From UHGV virus genome UHGV-0250493: a stretch of DNA of 26,823 nt; one strand, given 5' to 3'. Below are positions 10,373 through 14,946 of this stretch, piece after piece; the first letter of the stretch is position 1; every line of letters begins with the position of its first letter. Below the pieces are notes generated by a model. The model did not search any database, was not told the DNA's origin, and saw only the letters and a list, made by a program, of their open reading frames with translations. The stretch comes from a virus. Made by a program: the position numbers and the translations under genes.

Positions 10373-10393
10373 TTATCTGTGCGGGGAATGAAA

Positions 10394-10720
10394 ATGAAAA
10401 GAAATCTTCCGTTAATTATTTTGTTGTCTTCTCTGGTTATGGGCTGTACGCAACATAAAACAGATATGCCCCGACAGTTGGTTAAGGCATTACCACAATA
10501 TCCGGCCTATGCAGCGGCAAATTATATAAAGGGACGGGTTGATGTGAGGTTTGATATTGGTGCTGATGGTACTGTCACCCGAATTGAGTTTATTCGTTCA
10601 GAGCCGCACCATCTGTTTGATGAGCAGGTTGTAAAGGCGATGGCAAAATGGCGATTTGAGAAGGACAGGCCGTGTAAAGGCGTGAAGAAAACGTTTATCT
10701 TTAGTCCTTCTGCACACTGA
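10394..10720 (+). CDS. lipoprotein with TonB C-terminal domain
   Basis: Signal peptide with lipobox (LVMGC). The mature part PQYPAYAAANYIKGRVDVRFDIGADGTVTRIEFIRSEPHHLFDEQVVKAMAKWRF aligns closely with E. coli TonB residues about 160-230 (PQYPARAQALRIEGQVKVKFDV...REVKNAMRRWRYEPG). Confidence 0.75.
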   Translation: MKRNLPLIILLSSLVMGCTQHKTDMPRQLVKALPQYPAYAAANYIKGRVDVRFDIGADGTVTRIEFIRSEPHHLFDEQVVKAMAKWRFEKDRPCKGVKKTFIFSPSAH

Positions 10721-10851: not shown

Positions 10852-11052
10852 TCATTTCTCGTTATTTGTCATGCTGGCCGGGCGCAGATGCGTTGCATCT
10901 GTTGCCAGCCTTCTCCTGCAGGCTTCAATAACCCACGCTGAAAAGTTACCGGACCCTTTATGCTCAAGGGCGATGTTGATCTGTTCAATCATGTGATTGG
11001 GGAAACGGATATTGCGGGTTGTGGTTCTGCGGGTACGGTTTTTCGATGACAT
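10852..11052 (-). CDS. ribbon-helix-helix (CopG/Arc-like) small DNA-binding protein
   Basis: 66 aa from ATG 11052 (AAGGAA RBS) to stop at 10852-10854. MSSKNRTRRTTTRNIRFPNHMIEQINIALE...NFSAWVIEACRRRL fits the RHH beta-alpha-alpha pattern. Position upstream of terminase matches ylcI/ynfO. Confidence 0.55.
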   Translation of the reverse strand: MSSKNRTRRTTTRNIRFPNHMIEQINIALEHKGSGNFSAWVIEACRRRLATDATHLRPASMTNNEK

Positions 11053-11093
11053 ATTTATTTCCTTTACTGATTGCCATATGACGGGGATTTTAC

Positions 11094-11459
11094 ATGGCTG
11101 AGCTTCGTACACTCCAGAGCAGAATCAAAACACTGAATACCCGACGGGTGAATATTCTGAAGGGTGAACAGCGTCGTGTCAGTGGCAGTGCACGTGTTTC
11201 CCTCAAGCGTCATATCTGGCTCAGGGACGCCGGGCAGTGCCGTCTCTGTGGTCGTGTGGTTGACCTCTGTGACAGTGAACTCGATCACCGAATTGCACTT
11301 CAGTTCGGTGGTGGTAATGAGGAGACGAATCTCTGGACGCTCTGTACCGAATGCCATCGACAAAAGTCTGCTCGTGAAGCGGCGAGTGATATGCCGGACC
11401 CGACGCTGCCGGAGGTGTCCGGAGGTAGTGGCAGAGAGGACGACATCATCGGACTGTAA
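11094..11459 (+). CDS. HNH endonuclease (terminase-associated type)
   Basis: 121 aa with CxxC...DHRIALQFGG...NLWTLCTECHRQK HNH motif. GGGGA RBS. Sits next to the putative cos region and TerS, as in HK97-like phages. Confidence 0.8.
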   Translation: MAELRTLQSRIKTLNTRRVNILKGEQRRVSGSARVSLKRHIWLRDAGQCRLCGRVVDLCDSELDHRIALQFGGGNEETNLWTLCTECHRQKSAREAASDMPDPTLPEVSGGSGREDDIIGL

Positions 11460-11547
11460 CCCGACCCCGGGGGGGTATCATCCGGCGTAAAAAACGATCG
11501 CTTTGGACACCGCGCCCCCTCTCACGCAGAGAAAAAATTCCCGTTTC

Positions 11548-11682
11548 AGGGCAGTTAACATGTTAACTGGCTGCCCGGGCATTTTTGCGGTTTTTATCTT
11601 TATTATTCAGTTTGTTGTGCGGAAAAAATGTTAACAGGCTTTTTCAGCAAATGTTAACCAGGCAGCAGTTAACATTTGCGGC
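11548..11682. repeat. cluster of GTTAAC-containing palindromes (putative terminase-binding/cosB-like region)
   Basis: Perfect 18 bp palindrome CAGTTAACATGTTAACTG (11553-11570), AAATGTTAACAGG (11626-11638), and inverted pair AAATGTTAAC...GTTAACATTT (11650-11678), all between the HNH and TerS genes. Confidence 0.5.
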
Positions 11683-11749
11683 ATGAGACGCCGGGAAAAA
11701 TGGGCTGAACCATACCCGGCTGAGTGCGTTCTGGACCCGGGAGGAGGCT

Positions 11750-12340
11750 GTGCTGACAACGCAAAAACGAAAATTTGCGCTGGCGCTCATGTCCGGGAAA
11801 AACAAAACAGCGTCAGCCATTGCCGCCGGTTATTCGGCGAAGACCGCCAGGGTTAAAGGCTCGCAGCTGGCAAAAGATCCTGAGGTGCTTGCGTTTATAG
11901 CCCGTAAACAATGCGAGACGGTGGAGGTGGATGAGGTTCCTGTTTACCGGCAGAAAAAATCAGAGCAGGAGGATAAACCCCGTCGCCGTGAGGCGGCTGC
12001 AATACCACAGCCGGACGAAAACAATCTGGAGATGCCACCGTCCGCGGTGATGTCTCCTGGTATTGAATATATGGAGGATGGTCTTCCCGATCCGGTGAAA
12101 GCCATGGGGCGGATCCTGGTGGAAAACCTCTGCATTGATCCGAAACTGGCACTGGATGCGGCCTGGCGTCTGGCGCAGTTCACGCACCATAAAAAAGGGG
12201 ATACCGGGAAAAAATCGGCAAAAGATGATGCCGCGAAAAAAGCGGCTAACCGTTTTGCGGTGCCACCGCCACCCCGACTGGTGGTGAATCCGCCACCAGA
12301 GGTTCAACCCGGCTCCAGTCCAGAATACGCAGTTCTTTGA
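11750..12340 (+). CDS. terminase small subunit (C-terminal about 17 codons probably altered by a rearrangement junction)
   Basis: GTG start with GGAGGAGG RBS. N-terminal region KNKTASAIAAGYSAKTARVKGSQLAKDPEV typical of TerS. The 3' end overlaps, on the opposite strand, the end of the inverted portal fragment. Confidence 0.7.
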   Translation: MLTTQKRKFALALMSGKNKTASAIAAGYSAKTARVKGSQLAKDPEVLAFIARKQCETVEVDEVPVYRQKKSEQEDKPRRREAAAIPQPDENNLEMPPSAVMSPGIEYMEDGLPDPVKAMGRILVENLCIDPKLALDAAWRLAQFTHHKKGDTGKKSAKDDAAKKAANRFAVPPPPRLVVNPPPEVQPGSSPEYAVL

Positions 12341-12734
12341 TCTGCCCCCGGGCATTACGGATTTTCAGCACCACCGTATTGCCATGACGCAGTTTGGCGT
12401 TCAGCCACAGTTCAAAAAACTGGATGCGGTTCTGCTGGGCGTTGGGACGACGACAGAGGCGGGCAATATCCCCCCGGCGCGTTTCCCTGCGTATCCCATG
12501 CGCATCCGTCTGCATAAGACGCAGCCGCATTTTGGCGATATCCTGGGATATCAGCGAAATACATGCAAACACCGCATGAAAGGAGAGGACGGCTTCAGGA
12601 TCGGCTTTCACGCCCTGCTGCCAGGCGCCGGAAAAGGGCTCAGCCACCGCCTGAAACAGGCTGGTCCAGCCCGCCTCTCTTACGTCACGTCCTGATTTCT
12701 GGTTTTTTCGGGTTCGCCGTAAAAGGTTCCACAT
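12246..12734 (-). CDS. portal protein, N-terminal portion only (gene interrupted, inverted relative to its C-terminal part)
   Basis: ...SGAWQQGV...AVFACISLISQDIAKMRLRL...GNTVVLKIRNARGQIKELRILDWSRVEPLVAD matches the HK97-family portal N-terminus. After about position 12288 the frame runs 13 unrelated codons to a stop. Confidence 0.6.
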   Translation of the reverse strand: MWNLLRRTRKNQKSGRDVREAGWTSLFQAVAEPFSGAWQQGVKADPEAVLSFHAVFACISLISQDIAKMRLRLMQTDAHGIRRETRRGDIARLCRRPNAQQNRIQFFELWLNAKLRHGNTVVLKIRNARGQIKELRILDWSRVEPLVADSPPVGVAVAPQNG

Positions 12735-12901
12735 TCGCCATGCTCCGCATCACGTTTCTTTTTCTGACCTGCCGGACGTCGCACCGTGATGTACTCCGCC
12801 TTTCCCAGGCGAACCAGCACCTCCGCACACGGCTGTGCCACATCACGGATATCCCCGGCCCGGGCATCATGCGTGCCCTGCAGATATCGGATCTTTGCCA
12901 T
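12680..12901 (-). CDS. hypothetical small ORF between capsid and portal-N genes
   Basis: 73 aa ORF with weak RBS, overlapping the portal-N start in another frame. May be spurious. Confidence 0.2.
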   Translation of the reverse strand: MAKIRYLQGTHDARAGDIRDVAQPCAEVLVRLGKAEYITVRRPAGQKKKRDAEHGECGTFYGEPEKTRNQDVT

Positions 12902-12945
12902 AACCTGTTACGGGAGGCGCACGCCTCCCGTCCTCCTTATCAGAC

Positions 12946-14883
12946 TCAGCCGCCGGACGCACTGCCGTAGTTCACTCCGGTGATCACCGCCACCGCCGCA
13001 GTACGGCGACGACGCCAGTTGATCCAGCGCTCCGCACGGATGGCCACGCTGCCTGTCTGGAACATGGAAACCAGCTCCACCGGGGACGGCGTGGTACTGT
13101 CGCCGGTCGGCTCAGACTGCATTTCCAGTGATGCCTCGCGGGACATATCCACTGCCACGCCGCCGTCATCCGCCAGATAAATATCCGGGGCATTCACCAG
13201 CACCAGCTGGTCACCCACGTACTGGGAGACAATCACCGGCAGCCCCTGGAAGGAGCCACCCAGCAGGGTCATGTCCGGGTATTCCTTCTGACCCAGCGCA
13301 TTTTTACGCATGGACAGTGCCAGGGCATTGGTGCTGGACATCAGCCAGACCGCACCGGTGGGCTGCAGGTTTGCTGCCACAAACTGTCCAAACGCAGCCT
13401 CTGCATCCGCATCCGGGTTACCGGTTGATGCCGTGCCCTTCACATCATGGGTGATGGACGCCGGGGAGACATCTGCCACTGCGGCTTTTTTCGGGTCCAC
13501 AAAGTCTGTATCCAGACGCGCCACCACCGCTTCCGCCAGCGCATTACGGACCAGTGCATCAGCAGCCGGACTGGAAAAACGGATCAATTCTTCCGTCAGT
13601 ACCGCAATGGCCGACACCTTCGCATGACTGAAGGTGATGGATTCAAAATCAAACTTCGTCAGGGGTTTTGCCTTACCCTCACCCACCCAGCCGGCAGCAC
13701 CGCCGGACACCTGGGCGTGCACACGGATATTGAATGGCACCTGACGAAGTGCAGGGATCCCGCCCTGACCAAATCGCCCGATAATGGTCTGCGGACGCAG
13801 GTAATCAATAAAGTCCTGTGCGTATTCCTGATATTCAGACAGGCTGCCTGCCCACTGCGGATCCGTGGTGGTCCCCGCGCCCACTGCCGATTTCAGGACA
13901 TGATGCAGACGACTGTCATCCGGATACTGACGACGGGCCACTTCCAGGGCTTCAGATCGGACGCCTTTAGCCGCAGCCAGCGATTTGGCAAAGCGGGCGA
14001 AGCCAATCCCCTTATCCAGTTTCTGCTCCACACGGATCACCGGCGCAGAAGCCACCGCGGCCACATTCCCGTTACCGGCCTGTTTCACCGGCTGCGCCGT
14101 GGCGGCCTTACCGGCTTCCAGTTCACGCAGGCGCTTCAGGTGCGCATCCACCTGACGGATTTCCGCTGCGGTGTTGTCGTAATGCTCTTCCTCCTCCACA
14201 TCCAGCGTGCGCCCTTCCTCTGCGGCTTTGGTCATGACCTCCTCAAGGGAGGCTGCCAGCGCTGCACGCTTGTTTTCAAAACTTTTAATCTGTTCGCCAA
14301 TATTCATTATGGTCTTTTCCTTATGAAAAACGGTTGTTGACTGTGCCGCAGCGCCGGCAGAAGATGCGATTTTCACCACCGGTTTCCGGTTGCCGGACGC
14401 GGCAGAAAACGGGCGGTCGTAAGATTTAATGGTCCGGATGGTGCATTCCGCATTCGCGGGCACGGTGACGGCAGACACCTCCATCAGTTCCCAGCGCAGA
14501 AAATGCAGTCCGCCTCCGTCCAGAAAGGTGTATTCATGGGGACGGAAGCCCACGGACAGCCCCCTGACCAGCCCGGTCTTAATGGCCGCCCAGACCTCAT
14601 CCAGCCGGGCAGCCAGTTGCGACGGCATATCCGGTACGGGCTTCACCAGTGTTGCCGTGATTTCCAGCCCTTCGCTGACCCGGCGCACCGTACACTGCCC
14701 CACCGGGCGGGAATGGTCATGCTGCCAGAGAAACGGTATCGCACTGCCAAACTCCGCGCCCTCCGGCTCCAGGATGTCACCATCCCGATCCGGAGAAGGC
14801 GTTGACGCAATCCCGGTGATCACCCGTTCATCCTCACTGAAGGATTTCACCGTCAGCAGGGAACAGGCCCGTTTAAGAGTCAC
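12946..14883 (-). CDS. prohead serine protease - scaffold-like linker - HK97-fold major capsid protein fusion
   Basis: 645 aa. The N-terminus has prohead protease motifs (PFLWQHD, GLSVGF, EVSAVTVPAN). The middle is a charged coiled-coil-like region. The C-terminal about 300 aa has an HK97-type capsid pattern. GTG start with AGGAGG RBS. Confidence 0.8.
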   Translation of the reverse strand: MTLKRACSLLTVKSFSEDERVITGIASTPSPDRDGDILEPEGAEFGSAIPFLWQHDHSRPVGQCTVRRVSEGLEITATLVKPVPDMPSQLAARLDEVWAAIKTGLVRGLSVGFRPHEYTFLDGGGLHFLRWELMEVSAVTVPANAECTIRTIKSYDRPFSAASGNRKPVVKIASSAGAAAQSTTVFHKEKTIMNIGEQIKSFENKRAALAASLEEVMTKAAEEGRTLDVEEEEHYDNTAAEIRQVDAHLKRLRELEAGKAATAQPVKQAGNGNVAAVASAPVIRVEQKLDKGIGFARFAKSLAAAKGVRSEALEVARRQYPDDSRLHHVLKSAVGAGTTTDPQWAGSLSEYQEYAQDFIDYLRPQTIIGRFGQGGIPALRQVPFNIRVHAQVSGGAAGWVGEGKAKPLTKFDFESITFSHAKVSAIAVLTEELIRFSSPAADALVRNALAEAVVARLDTDFVDPKKAAVADVSPASITHDVKGTASTGNPDADAEAAFGQFVAANLQPTGAVWLMSSTNALALSMRKNALGQKEYPDMTLLGGSFQGLPVIVSQYVGDQLVLVNAPDIYLADDGGVAVDMSREASLEMQSEPTGDSTTPSPVELVSMFQTGSVAIRAERWINWRRRRTAAVAVITGVNYGSASGG

Positions 14884-14893
14884 ATCAGCCTCC

Positions 14894-14922
14894 TGAAAAT
14901 AAAAAAACCGCCGGAGCGGTTC
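14894..14922 (-). terminator. intrinsic terminator between TerL and the capsid gene (minus strand)
   Basis: On the minus strand, hairpin AACCGC-TCCG-GCGGTT followed by TTTTTTTATTTT, immediately before the AGGAGG RBS of the capsid gene. Confidence 0.5.
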
Positions 14923-14946
14923 GTGATGGTTACAGTGTGAACAGGG

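What the first reader, a model, noticed from the sequence alone, without database searches (positions are those of the whole stretch)
11460..11749. Array of GTTAAC-centred palindromes between the HNH endonuclease and TerS (likely cos / terminase recognition region)
Within 130 bp there is a perfect 18 bp palindrome CAGTTAACATGTTAACTG plus at least three more ATGTTAAC / GTTAACAT elements in both orientations. An HNH endonuclease gene ends just upstream and TerS starts just downstream, the arrangement in which HK97-like phages place cos and where HNH proteins assist terminase cleavage. The repeats are good candidates for TerS binding sites, or alternatively operators for the adjacent RHH protein.
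Basis: partly seen in the sequence, partly recalled or inferred. Interest (0 to 1): 0.45.

Follow-up and report, generated by a model that had tools for sequence, protein, structure and literature searches.

The report
Phage cos site with terminase-binding repeats
This is the DNA-packaging (cos) signal of a very common E. coli Stx-type prophage family: a mapped cutting site followed by five ATGTTAAC repeats that most likely dock the small terminase, and that small parasitic islands have copied so they get packaged too.

Summary
All five ATGTTAAC copies in the 26.8-kb window lie in 11554-11675 (0.56 expected). They include a perfect 18-bp palindrome and a perfect 12-bp inverted repeat.

The HNH-terS spacer is the cos site. 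Virion ends mapped in the close relative Lys8385Vzw and in Acinetobacter phage fEg-Aba01 align to the window. They place a 10-nt 3' cohesive end at 11511-11520, 32 bp upstream of the first palindrome.

The repeats sit where lambda has cosB. They are probably binding sites for the TerS N-terminal helix-turn-helix:
- Two PICI-like satellites with no terminase or HNH gene keep all 38 half-site bases, but only about 64% of the bases between them.
- A variant prophage changes all five half-sites together to ATGTTTAY. Its TerS HTH has seven substitutions, while its RHH protein is 100% identical.
- Chimeric TerS proteins show that the array follows the HTH domain.
- In short-spacer relatives the hexamer pair overlaps the terS start codon and freezes codons 2-3.

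The RHH-operator, structured-RNA and terminator readings are not supported. TerS is SF6/SPP1-like, not HK97-like. No protein binding has been measured. I rate it a new variant of a known kind, of moderate interest.

The parts
11094..11459 (+). HNH endonuclease gene (121 aa), the presumed accessory nuclease for cos cleavage
   Evidence: Pfam HNH PF01844, E=3.7e-8. Annotated as HNH endonuclease in RefSeq relatives.
11469..11475 (.). G-run (GGGGGGG), the conserved left-hand element of cos, 29 nt upstream of the core
   Evidence: Present at the same position in all enterobacterial, Acinetobacter and Burkholderia relatives and in the satellites. HK97 also has a G-run about 45 nt before its right end. 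ISEc20 abuts it in PPompW prophages.
11505..11542 (+). cos core GGACACCGCGCCCCCTCTCACGCAGAGAAAAAATTCCC, which includes an A-tract at 11532-11537
   Evidence: Aligns without gaps over 38 nt with the fEg-Aba01 end junction. Near-invariant across 20 taxa. Identical in the STEC1587 prophage; the CH427 satellite differs at one base (11540).
11511..11520 (+). Predicted 10-nt 3' cohesive end CGCGCCCCCT, with the top-strand nick at 11520|11521 and the bottom-strand nick at 11510|11511
   Evidence: The Lys8385Vzw record ends ...GGACACCGCCCCCCCT and begins CTCACGCAGAG. PhageTerm gave 3' cohesive ends CGCCCCCCCT (PMC7946995). fEg-Aba01 has the 3' cohesive end CGCCCCCCAT at the homologous position (PMC7354433).
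11552..11569 (.). Perfect 18-bp palindrome CAGTTAACATGTTAACTG, made of half-sites 1 (-) and 2 (+), at +32 to +49 from the nick
   Evidence: Homologous to the GTWAAC-RT-GTTAAC pair that overlaps the terS start codon in short-spacer relatives.
11582..11617 (.). T-rich spacer with a weak IHF-like match (ATTCAGTTTGTTG, 11605-11617); a possible bend between the site groups
   Evidence: Partly conserved in the satellites and the STEC1587 variant. The IHF consensus match has 1 mismatch and is not statistically significant. This assignment is speculative.
11628..11635 (+). Half-site 3, ATGTTAAC (an isolated site, not part of any inverted repeat)
   Evidence: Invariant in the satellites, and changed to ATGTTTAT in the STEC1587 variant.
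11647..11679 (.). Perfect 12-bp inverted repeat GCAAATGTTAAC-N9-GTTAACATTTGC, made of half-sites 4 (+) and 5 (-); marks the right end of the cis-acting module
   Evidence: Satellite similarity to the window stops right after this repeat.
11750..12340 (+). terS (Terminase_2 family). The N-terminal HTH domain, residues 1-55, is encoded by 11750-11914. The C-terminus beyond 12288 is altered by the inversion.
   Evidence: Pfam PF03592. The profile matches the SF6-type TerS DNA-binding domains 4ZC3, 2CMP and 3ZQP. The AlphaFold N-domain has pLDDT 94-97, with helices at 4-14, 19-25, 33-41 and 44-55.
14947..16608 (-). terL (HK97-type ATPase plus nuclease), the enzyme expected to nick cos; it lies in an inverted segment in this window
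   Evidence: Pfam TerL_ATPase PF03354 and TerL_nuclease PF20441. Inversion shown.

Best explanation
The HNH-terS spacer is the cos packaging signal of this lambdoid, Stx-phage-like prophage. It has three modules: a G-run (11469-11475), a conserved core (11505-11542) and a 128-bp array of five ATGTTAAC half-sites (11552-11679).

In the core, TerL with the HNH protein would make staggered nicks at 11510|11511 and 11520|11521. This leaves a 10-nt 3' overhang, CGCGCCCCCT.

The array lies at +32 to +159 on the end that is packaged first, between the nick and terS. That is the position of cosB in lambda. I propose that the N-terminal helix-turn-helix domains of the oligomeric TerS bind these half-sites: a palindromic pair, a T-rich spacer of about 60 bp that may bend, then three more sites. 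This would anchor the terminase next to the core and set packaging specificity.

Shown (by homology to mapped relatives and by comparison): the position of the termini, the conservation pattern, and the covariation with TerS.
Inferred: physical TerS binding, any bend or IHF role, and the division of labour between TerL and HNH.
For: Termini:
- Lys8385Vzw (TerS 94% identical, spacer 97% identical) has PhageTerm-mapped 3' cohesive ends CGCCCCCCCT. Its record ends align to window 11520|11521.
- fEg-Aba01 has a 10-nt 3' end, CGCCCCCCAT, at the homologous position of a 38-nt ungapped alignment.
- The core is conserved across Enterobacterales, Acinetobacter and Burkholderia.

The array acts in cis:
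- Two different PICI-like islands (L108, L156) have no TerS, TerL or HNH homologue. Both carry the G-run, the core and all five half-sites at the same spacing.
- In them, half-site positions are 38/38 identical, against 64/99 and 62/99 for the other positions (Fisher p about 1e-6). Similarity ends right after the last repeat.

The array goes with TerS:
- The STEC1587 prophage has RHH 100% identical, HNH 97% identical and an identical core. All five half-sites change together to ATGTTTAY. TerS has seven substitutions between residues 19 and 35, in and around the two HTH helices.
- Loci L231-L235 encode a chimeric TerS with the window-type HTH and a STEC1587-like remainder. They keep ATGTTAAC x5.
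- TerS residue 32 tracks the hexamer type. Thr goes with TTAA in 10 of 10 combinations. Ser goes with TAAA in 21 of 23.

Constraint at the DNA level:
- In 30 distinct short-spacer relatives the hexamer pair overlaps the terS start. Codons 2-3 are invariably TTA ACA, while later codons vary synonymously.
- Where the start codon is displaced (this window, Proteus), codon 2 is CTG or CTA.
- fEg-Aba01 has three AAGTTAAA repeats between cos and terS.
Against: - No binding, footprint or packaging assay exists for this TerS or these repeats. Everything about binding is comparative.
- The residue-32/hexamer association has two exceptions (Ser with ATTAAC: the Rouxiella type and L315/L317). It is also not corrected for shared ancestry.
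- The STEC1587 difference coincides with a mosaic boundary. Array and terS could therefore differ together simply because they are linked, although the concerted same-position changes argue against drift.
- Spacings between sites (8, 68, 23, 15 bp) are not multiples of a helical turn.
- In HK97 the TerS site is a single A-tract site at +15 to +29 (PMC11331095). The conserved A-tract here (+12 to +17) could be a TerS contact as well, or instead.
- This particular prophage carries an inversion that splits its portal gene, so its cos may only ever be used in trans.
Confidence: 0.75

Rival explanations
1. The repeats are operators for the adjacent ribbon-helix-helix protein (YlcI/YnfO, DUF3950; 10852-11052, minus strand), which would regulate late or packaging genes.
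For: The RHH gene lies about 500 bp upstream. RHH proteins commonly bind tandem or inverted repeats (general knowledge). One satellite also carries a gene that RefSeq annotates as YlcI/YnfO family.
Against: The STEC1587 prophage encodes a 100% identical RHH protein, yet all five repeats have a different sequence. The repeats lie inside the packaged left end, 450 bp or more from the RHH gene's own upstream region. The satellite protein gave no Pfam hit at E<0.01. In the satellites the array has no gene downstream to regulate.
Confidence: 0.03
2. The repeats are non-functional debris: leftover duplications of the ancestral terS 5' end (ATG TTA AC = Met-Leu-Thr), created when about 180 bp was inserted between cos and terS.
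For: In short-spacer relatives ATGTTAAC is literally the terS start, and it aligns on the window's palindrome. Direct-repeat families such as AACATGTTAACTGGCT / AAAATGTTAACAGGCT suggest duplication.
Against: Half-sites are 38/38 conserved in the satellites, against about 64% for neighbouring bases. All five change at the same motif positions in the STEC1587 lineage. The 24-codon ORF starting at 11560 is not conserved; the satellite copy stops after 4 codons. Duplication may well explain where the array came from, but not why it is maintained.
Confidence: 0.05
3. The palindromes act at the RNA level in the late transcript, as a terminator, an attenuator or a structure controlling terS translation.
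For: Both dyads would form hairpins in RNA. Dyad symmetry is kept by changes on both arms in the STEC1587 variant. In short-spacer relatives the dyad overlaps the terS ribosome-binding region.
Against: The fold of 11521-11749 is no more stable than shuffled sequence (z = -1.54). There is no Rfam match at E<=1. The scan found no terminator-like site in the spacer. The unpaired half-site 3 changes in concert with the paired ones. The satellites keep the array with no downstream gene.
Confidence: 0.05
4. The repeats are bound by a different protein: the HNH endonuclease, TerL, or a host factor. TerS would instead recognise the conserved A-tract core, as in HK97.
For: HK97 TerS binds a single A-tract site at +15 to +29 (PMC11331095). 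Here a conserved A-tract sits at +12 to +17. HNH differs at 4 residues between the window and STEC1587.
Against: The core with its A-tract is identical in lineages whose TerS HTH and repeats both differ. The array type follows the TerS N-terminal domain in the chimeric TerS loci. The TerS here is not of the HK97 family.
Confidence: 0.1

Closest known systems
Lambda cos (cosQ-cosN-cosB, with R3-I1-R2-R1 bound by gpNu1 and IHF)
   Same: Several short repeats in both orientations lie between the nick site and the small-terminase gene, on the end packaged first. They fall into two groups separated by an AT-rich segment. cosB specificity is exchangeable and is exploited by PICIs (PMC6092414, PMC6739421).
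   Different: Lambda has a 12-nt 5' overhang and no HNH partner, and gpNu1 belongs to an unrelated TerS family. The repeat sequences are unrelated. An IHF site is not established here.
HK97 cos (10-nt 3' overhang, HNH gp74, single TerS site at +15 to +29; PMC11331095)
   Same: Gene order HNH-cos-terS-terL. TerL, portal, protease and capsid are of the HK97 type. A G-run lies upstream of the end. The overhang is 10 nt and 3'. An A-tract follows shortly after the nick.
   Different: HK97 TerS is a different family, and terS starts only 49 bp after the cut. Here TerS is Terminase_2, the leader is 229 bp, and it carries five repeated half-sites.
cos ends reported for Stx1 phage Lys8385Vzw (PMC7946995) and Acinetobacter phage fEg-Aba01 (PMC7354433)
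   Same: Homologous cos core and cohesive-end position. Lys8385Vzw has the same five-site array. fEg-Aba01 has three AAGTTAAA repeats in the equivalent place.
   Different: The passages of those papers retrieved by term search report only the 10-nt cohesive end. No mention of the repeats or of TerS recognition sites appeared in them.
SPP1 / SF6 small terminase (G1P) and its pac site
   Same: The TerS N-terminal HTH DNA-binding domain is homologous (Pfam Terminase_2; matches to 4ZC3, 2CMP and 3ZQP). In those phages TerS also recognises repeated boxes flanking the cut (general knowledge).
   Different: Those phages package by the headful (pac) mechanism, without HNH and without defined cohesive ends. 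The repeat sequences are unrelated.
cos-carrying phage satellites (EcCICFT073, SaPIbov5)
   Same: The CH427 and L156 islands carry a helper-type cos at one end and lack terminase genes. L156 has the EcCICFT073-like set of integrase, D5-type primase, lambda-E-like capsid and D-like decoration protein.
   Different: EcCICFT073 uses a lambda-type cosN with a divergent cosB, plus Rpp to retarget TerS (PMC6739421). These islands copy the helper's repeats exactly.

Membership tests
HNH-assisted 3'-cos packaging module (HK97-like) | An HNH endonuclease gene immediately upstream of cos and the terminase genes | tested here: met
   HNH at 11094-11459, terS at 11750.
HNH-assisted 3'-cos packaging module (HK97-like) | HK97-type TerL, portal, prohead protease and major capsid protein | tested here: met
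   Pfam PF03354 and PF20441, PF04860, PF04586 and PF05065.
HNH-assisted 3'-cos packaging module (HK97-like) | Defined 10-nt 3' cohesive ends between the HNH gene and terS | tested here: met
   Met by alignment to the mapped ends of Lys8385Vzw and fEg-Aba01. Not measured on this element itself.
HNH-assisted 3'-cos packaging module (HK97-like) | TerS of the HK97 gp1 / P27 family | tested here: not met
   TerS hits only Pfam Terminase_2 and SF6-type DNA-binding domains.
HNH-assisted 3'-cos packaging module (HK97-like) | cos cleavage requires or is stimulated by the HNH protein | not testable with these tools
   Needs in vitro cleavage assays or a deletion mutant.
Lambda-type cosB | Repeated TerS-binding elements between the nick site and the terS gene | tested here: inconclusive
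   The position and the repeats are present. TerS binding is supported only by covariation and by retention in the satellites.
Lambda-type cosB | gpNu1-family TerS and the R-element sequence | tested here: not met
   TerS is Terminase_2. The repeat is ATGTTAAC, unrelated to lambda R elements (the R-element comparison rests on general knowledge).
Lambda-type cosB | An IHF site between the repeat groups | tested here: inconclusive
   A one-mismatch consensus match at 11605-11617, not above chance (41 matches against 27.5 expected in the whole window).
Terminase_2 (SF6/SPP1-type) small terminase | An N-terminal HTH DNA-binding domain | tested here: met
   Pfam PF03592 over residues 2-57. Profile matches to 4ZC3, 2CMP and 3ZQP. 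AlphaFold gives a four-helix N-domain with pLDDT 94-97.
Operator array of the neighbouring RHH (YlcI/YnfO) protein | The repeat sequence covaries with the regulator | tested here: not met
   RHH is 100% identical while all five repeats differ.
Structured RNA or intrinsic terminator | Stability above background, a match to a known family, or a stem followed by a U-tract | tested here: not met
   z = -1.54. No Rfam match. No terminator-like site in the spacer.

The most novel reading that the evidence does not exclude
The TerS N-terminal HTH and its repeat array form an exchangeable packaging-specificity cassette, with at least two natural specificities in E. coli: Thr32 with ATGTTAAC and Ser32 with ATGTTTAY. 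These specificities would decide which of the many co-resident lambdoid or Stx prophages, defective prophages and PICI satellites are packaged by which terminase. The five-site, two-group layout over 128 bp would also be a natural test case for the disputed wrap-around mode of DNA recognition by ring-shaped SF6-type small terminases.
Probability: 0.4. Interest if true: 0.6.

Novelty: new variant of a known kind. Interest (0 to 1): 0.5.

Why it matters
This spacer is present in 1,287 of 5,426 complete E. coli genomes, with up to 8 copies per genome. It belongs to the head module of many Stx1 and Stx2 phages.

If the repeats are the TerS recognition code, they would determine which prophages, defective prophages and satellites can be mobilised by a given induced phage. 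That bears on the spread of Shiga-toxin and effector genes.

How small terminases read DNA is still debated. This system offers natural specificity variants, chimeric TerS proteins and satellites that copy the site. Together they make the question directly testable with simple EMSA and transduction experiments.

It is not a new kind of element. It combines a known logic (cosN plus cosB-like sites) with an unusual set of parts: HK97-type TerL and HNH, a 3' overhang, and an SF6-type TerS.

Tried and rejected
- **Rfam and the promoter/terminator scan:** nothing in the spacer apart from one weak promoter-like match on the minus strand, built from the repeats themselves.
- **RNA fold:** not significant.
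- **IHF consensus:** a one-mismatch hit in the T-rich spacer, no better than chance. I keep it only as speculation.
- **Small ORF at 11560-11634 (MLTGCPGIFAVFIFIIQFVVRKKC):** rejected, because the satellite copy stops after 4 codons.
- **Variation among 48 distinct close relatives:** the half-sites never vary, but the whole array is too conserved at this distance for that to be informative.
- **Full-text search for the cos core sequences:** only irrelevant hits.
- **Record starts as evidence for termini:**
  - The Burkholderia records start at inconsistent offsets, 28-60 bp before terS, so I did not use them.
  - The phi330 record is opened arbitrarily, and its note was truncated.
- **Satellite capsid gene:** BLASTP against the window's protease-capsid fusion found no similarity.
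- **HK97 itself:** it shares only the G-run and the left-half architecture, not the right-hand sites.

Full report
**Observation.** The spacer 11460-11749 lies between an HNH endonuclease ORF (11094-11459, Pfam HNH) and a small-terminase ORF (11750-12340, Pfam Terminase_2).
- ATGTTAAC occurs five times in the 26.8-kb window. All five copies lie in 11554-11675, against 0.56 expected, and 0 of 100 shuffles reach five.
- They form a perfect 18-bp palindrome (11552-11569), an isolated site (11628-11635), and a perfect 12-bp inverted repeat with a 9-nt spacer (11647-11658 / 11668-11679).
- The description is accurate and well above chance.

**Context.** The window is a lambdoid prophage of E. coli.
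- The HNH-spacer-terS stretch is 93-99% identical to many Stx1/Stx2 phages, including BP-4795, 2851, 1717 and YYZ-2008.
- The spacer with its gene edges occurs in 1,287 of 5,426 complete E. coli genomes, with up to 8 copies per genome.
- TerL, portal, protease and capsid are HK97-type by Pfam.
- TerS is not HK97-type. It matches Terminase_2 and the solved DNA-binding domains of SF6-type small terminases.
- An AlphaFold model gives a confident four-helix N-domain, with pLDDT 94-97 and helices at 4-14, 19-25, 33-41 and 44-55.

**Where cos is.**
- A block of about 100 bp upstream of terS is conserved across Enterobacterales genera, and recognisably in Acinetobacter and Burkholderia phages. It consists of a G-run, about 29 variable bases, then GGACACCGCGCCCCCTCTCACGCAGAGAAAAAATTCCC.
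- Acinetobacter phage fEg-Aba01 has a 10-nt 3' cohesive end, CGCCCCCCAT. It was identified by PhageTerm, and the presence of cohesive ends was confirmed by a heat/cool restriction gel (PMC7354433). Its end junction aligns without gaps over 38 nt with window 11505-11542.
- The close relative Lys8385Vzw (TerS 94% identical) was reported as a cos phage with 3' cohesive ends CGCCCCCCCT (PMC7946995). Its record ends ...GGACACCGCCCCCCCT and starts CTCACGCAGAGAAAAAATTCCC. The first 229 bases then run through all five repeats to terS, at 97% identity to the window.
- The window's cohesive end is therefore predicted at 11511-11520 (CGCGCCCCCT), with the top-strand nick at 11520|11521. The repeats occupy +32 to +159 of the end that enters the capsid first.

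**What the repeats are.** Five lines of comparison point to a cis-acting, TerS-specific recognition array.
1. *Satellites.*
   - E. coli CH427 carries an island of about 9.5 kb next to clpS. It encodes an integrase, regulators, an Icd-like protein, a RepA-type helicase and its own protease-capsid fusion. Its last element is a copy of the G-run, the core and all five half-sites at the same spacing.
   - A second island (L156) has a different backbone: integrase, D5-type primase, SSB, a lambda-E-like capsid protein and a D-like decoration protein. It shares the same end module.
   - Neither island has a TerS, TerL or HNH homologue.
   - Across 11543-11679 the half-site positions are 38/38 identical in both islands. 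The remaining positions are 64/99 and 62/99 identical (p about 1e-6). Similarity stops right after the last repeat.
   - The satellite-type copy occurs in 50 of 5,426 genomes.
2. *A second specificity.*
   - The STEC1587 prophage type occurs in 12 of 5,426 genomes.
   - Its RHH protein is 100% identical, its HNH 97% identical and its cos core identical.
   - From the first palindrome onward the sequence diverges. All five half-sites change at the same motif positions to ATGTTTAY, which preserves both dyads.
   - Its TerS carries K19R, S22A, I24V, A25E, A30E, T32S and V35C, in and around the two HTH helices.
   - The isolated site 3 changes in the same way. Hairpin maintenance alone would not explain that.
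3. *Natural chimeras.* Loci L231-L235 encode a TerS that is STEC1587-like outside the N-domain, with the window-type HTH. They keep ATGTTAAC x5.
4. *Short-spacer relatives.*
   - In most genera terS starts 39-40 bp after the nick. The hexamer pair GTWAAC-RT-GTTAAC overlaps its start codon, so ATG TTA AC encodes Met-Leu-Thr.
   - Among 30 distinct such 5' ends, codons 2 and 3 are always TTA and ACA. Codons for Gln, Arg, Lys, Phe and Ala vary synonymously.
   - Where the start codon is displaced from this position (the window, Proteus), codon 2 is CTG or CTA, and a GTTAAC still sits at +34.
5. *Residue-base association.*
   - Residue 32 lies at the N-terminal cap of the predicted recognition helix.
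   - It is Thr where the first hexamer is of the TTAA type: the window, the L126 clade, Serratia, Proteus, fEg-Aba01 with three AAGTTAAA repeats, and Burkholderia.
   - It is Ser where the hexamer is of the TAAA type: most short-spacer lineages, STEC1587, and an Acinetobacter MAG.
   - There are two exceptions.
   - This association is not corrected for shared ancestry.

**Mechanism proposed.** TerS N-domains bind the half-sites. These form a palindromic pair at +34/+42 and three sites at +110, +133 and +148, separated by a T-rich stretch that may bend. Binding would hold TerL and HNH over the conserved core. The staggered nicks there give the 10-nt 3' overhang, and packaging proceeds toward terS. 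The positions of the ends rest on mapped relatives. Binding, bending and the roles of the two nucleases are inferred.

**Rivals.**
- *RHH operators:* contradicted by the identical RHH protein with a changed motif.
- *RNA structure or terminator:* no support, and the satellites have no downstream gene.
- *Neutral duplication debris:* may explain where the array came from, but not how it is maintained.
- *Another binding protein, or TerS reading only the A-tract as in HK97* (PMC11331095): cannot be excluded without biochemistry. The core is invariant between lineages whose TerS HTH and repeats both differ.

**Comparison with known systems.**
- It works like lambda cosB, but with unrelated proteins and the opposite overhang polarity.
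- It shares HNH, TerL, the G-run and the 3' overhang with HK97, but not the TerS family or the single-site layout.
- The TerS DNA-binding domain is of the SF6/SPP1 type, otherwise known from headful packagers.
- The passages retrieved from the papers on Lys8385Vzw and fEg-Aba01 report only the cohesive-end sequence. I found no description of the repeats in the held library.
- cos-carrying PICIs are known for lambda-type cos. There the island's cosB differs from the helper's and Rpp retargets TerS (PMC6092414, PMC6739421). Here the islands copy the helper's repeats.

**Verdict.** This is a new variant of a known kind, of moderate interest.

Noticed in passing
window 12288-16630: A 4,343-bp segment holding terL, the protease-capsid fusion and the portal N-terminus is inverted relative to every complete E. 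coli genome searched, including one that is 100% identical piecewise (NCCP15648). The inversion splits the portal gene (12246-12734 on the minus strand, 16589-18439 on the plus strand) and alters the TerS C-terminus. There are no inverted repeats at the breakpoints. It could be a rare rearrangement or an assembly artefact. Either way the prophage as written would be defective, with an intact cos.
   Followed up: partly
L108 1-9500 (E. coli CH427, NZ_CM166357 about 639,900-649,400) and L156 (IMG/VR UViG_2563366903_000013): Two PICI-like islands with different backbones share a 93-aa ORF of unknown function plus the cos-and-array module at their ends. Neither has terminase or HNH genes. Each encodes its own capsid protein, unrelated to the window's. 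The satellite-type cos is in 50 of 5,426 complete genomes.
   Followed up: partly
L109 2556-2860 (E. coli STEC1587 prophage): An alternative array with all five half-sites as ATGTTTAY, paired with a TerS whose HTH differs at seven residues. Found in 12 of 5,426 complete genomes.
   Followed up: yes
window about 11472 (G-run); L311 1146-2604: In PPompW prophages the IS110-family element ISEc20 abuts the cos G-run. The lysis genes and the HNH gene between the Q-linked tRNAs and cos are absent there.
   Followed up: partly
L085-L101 and the short-type L110-L229 loci: In most Enterobacterales relatives the terS start codon sits inside the hexamer pair, 39-40 bp from the cos nick. Leu2 is frozen as the rare TTA codon and Thr3 as ACA in 30 of 30 distinct sequences.
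   Followed up: yes
L312 470-533 with L001 1-50 (HK97 ends): HK97's right end also has a G-run about 45 nt before the terminus, and its left half resembles the fEg-Aba01 and Rouxiella sequences. This suggests that the left half of cos, on the TerL/HNH side, is shared more widely than the TerS side.
   Followed up: partly
window 10379-10720 and 10852-11112: A TonB_C-domain lipoprotein gene and a minus-strand DUF3950 (YlcI/YnfO) gene sit between Rz and HNH. The longest form of the DUF3950 ORF overlaps the HNH start. The function of both is unknown.
   Followed up: no
window 11560-11634: A 24-codon hydrophobic ORF (MLTGCPGIFAVFIFIIQFVVRKKC) starts at the ATG homologous to the ancestral terS start. 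It is not conserved in the satellite copy, so it is probably not a gene.
   Followed up: yes
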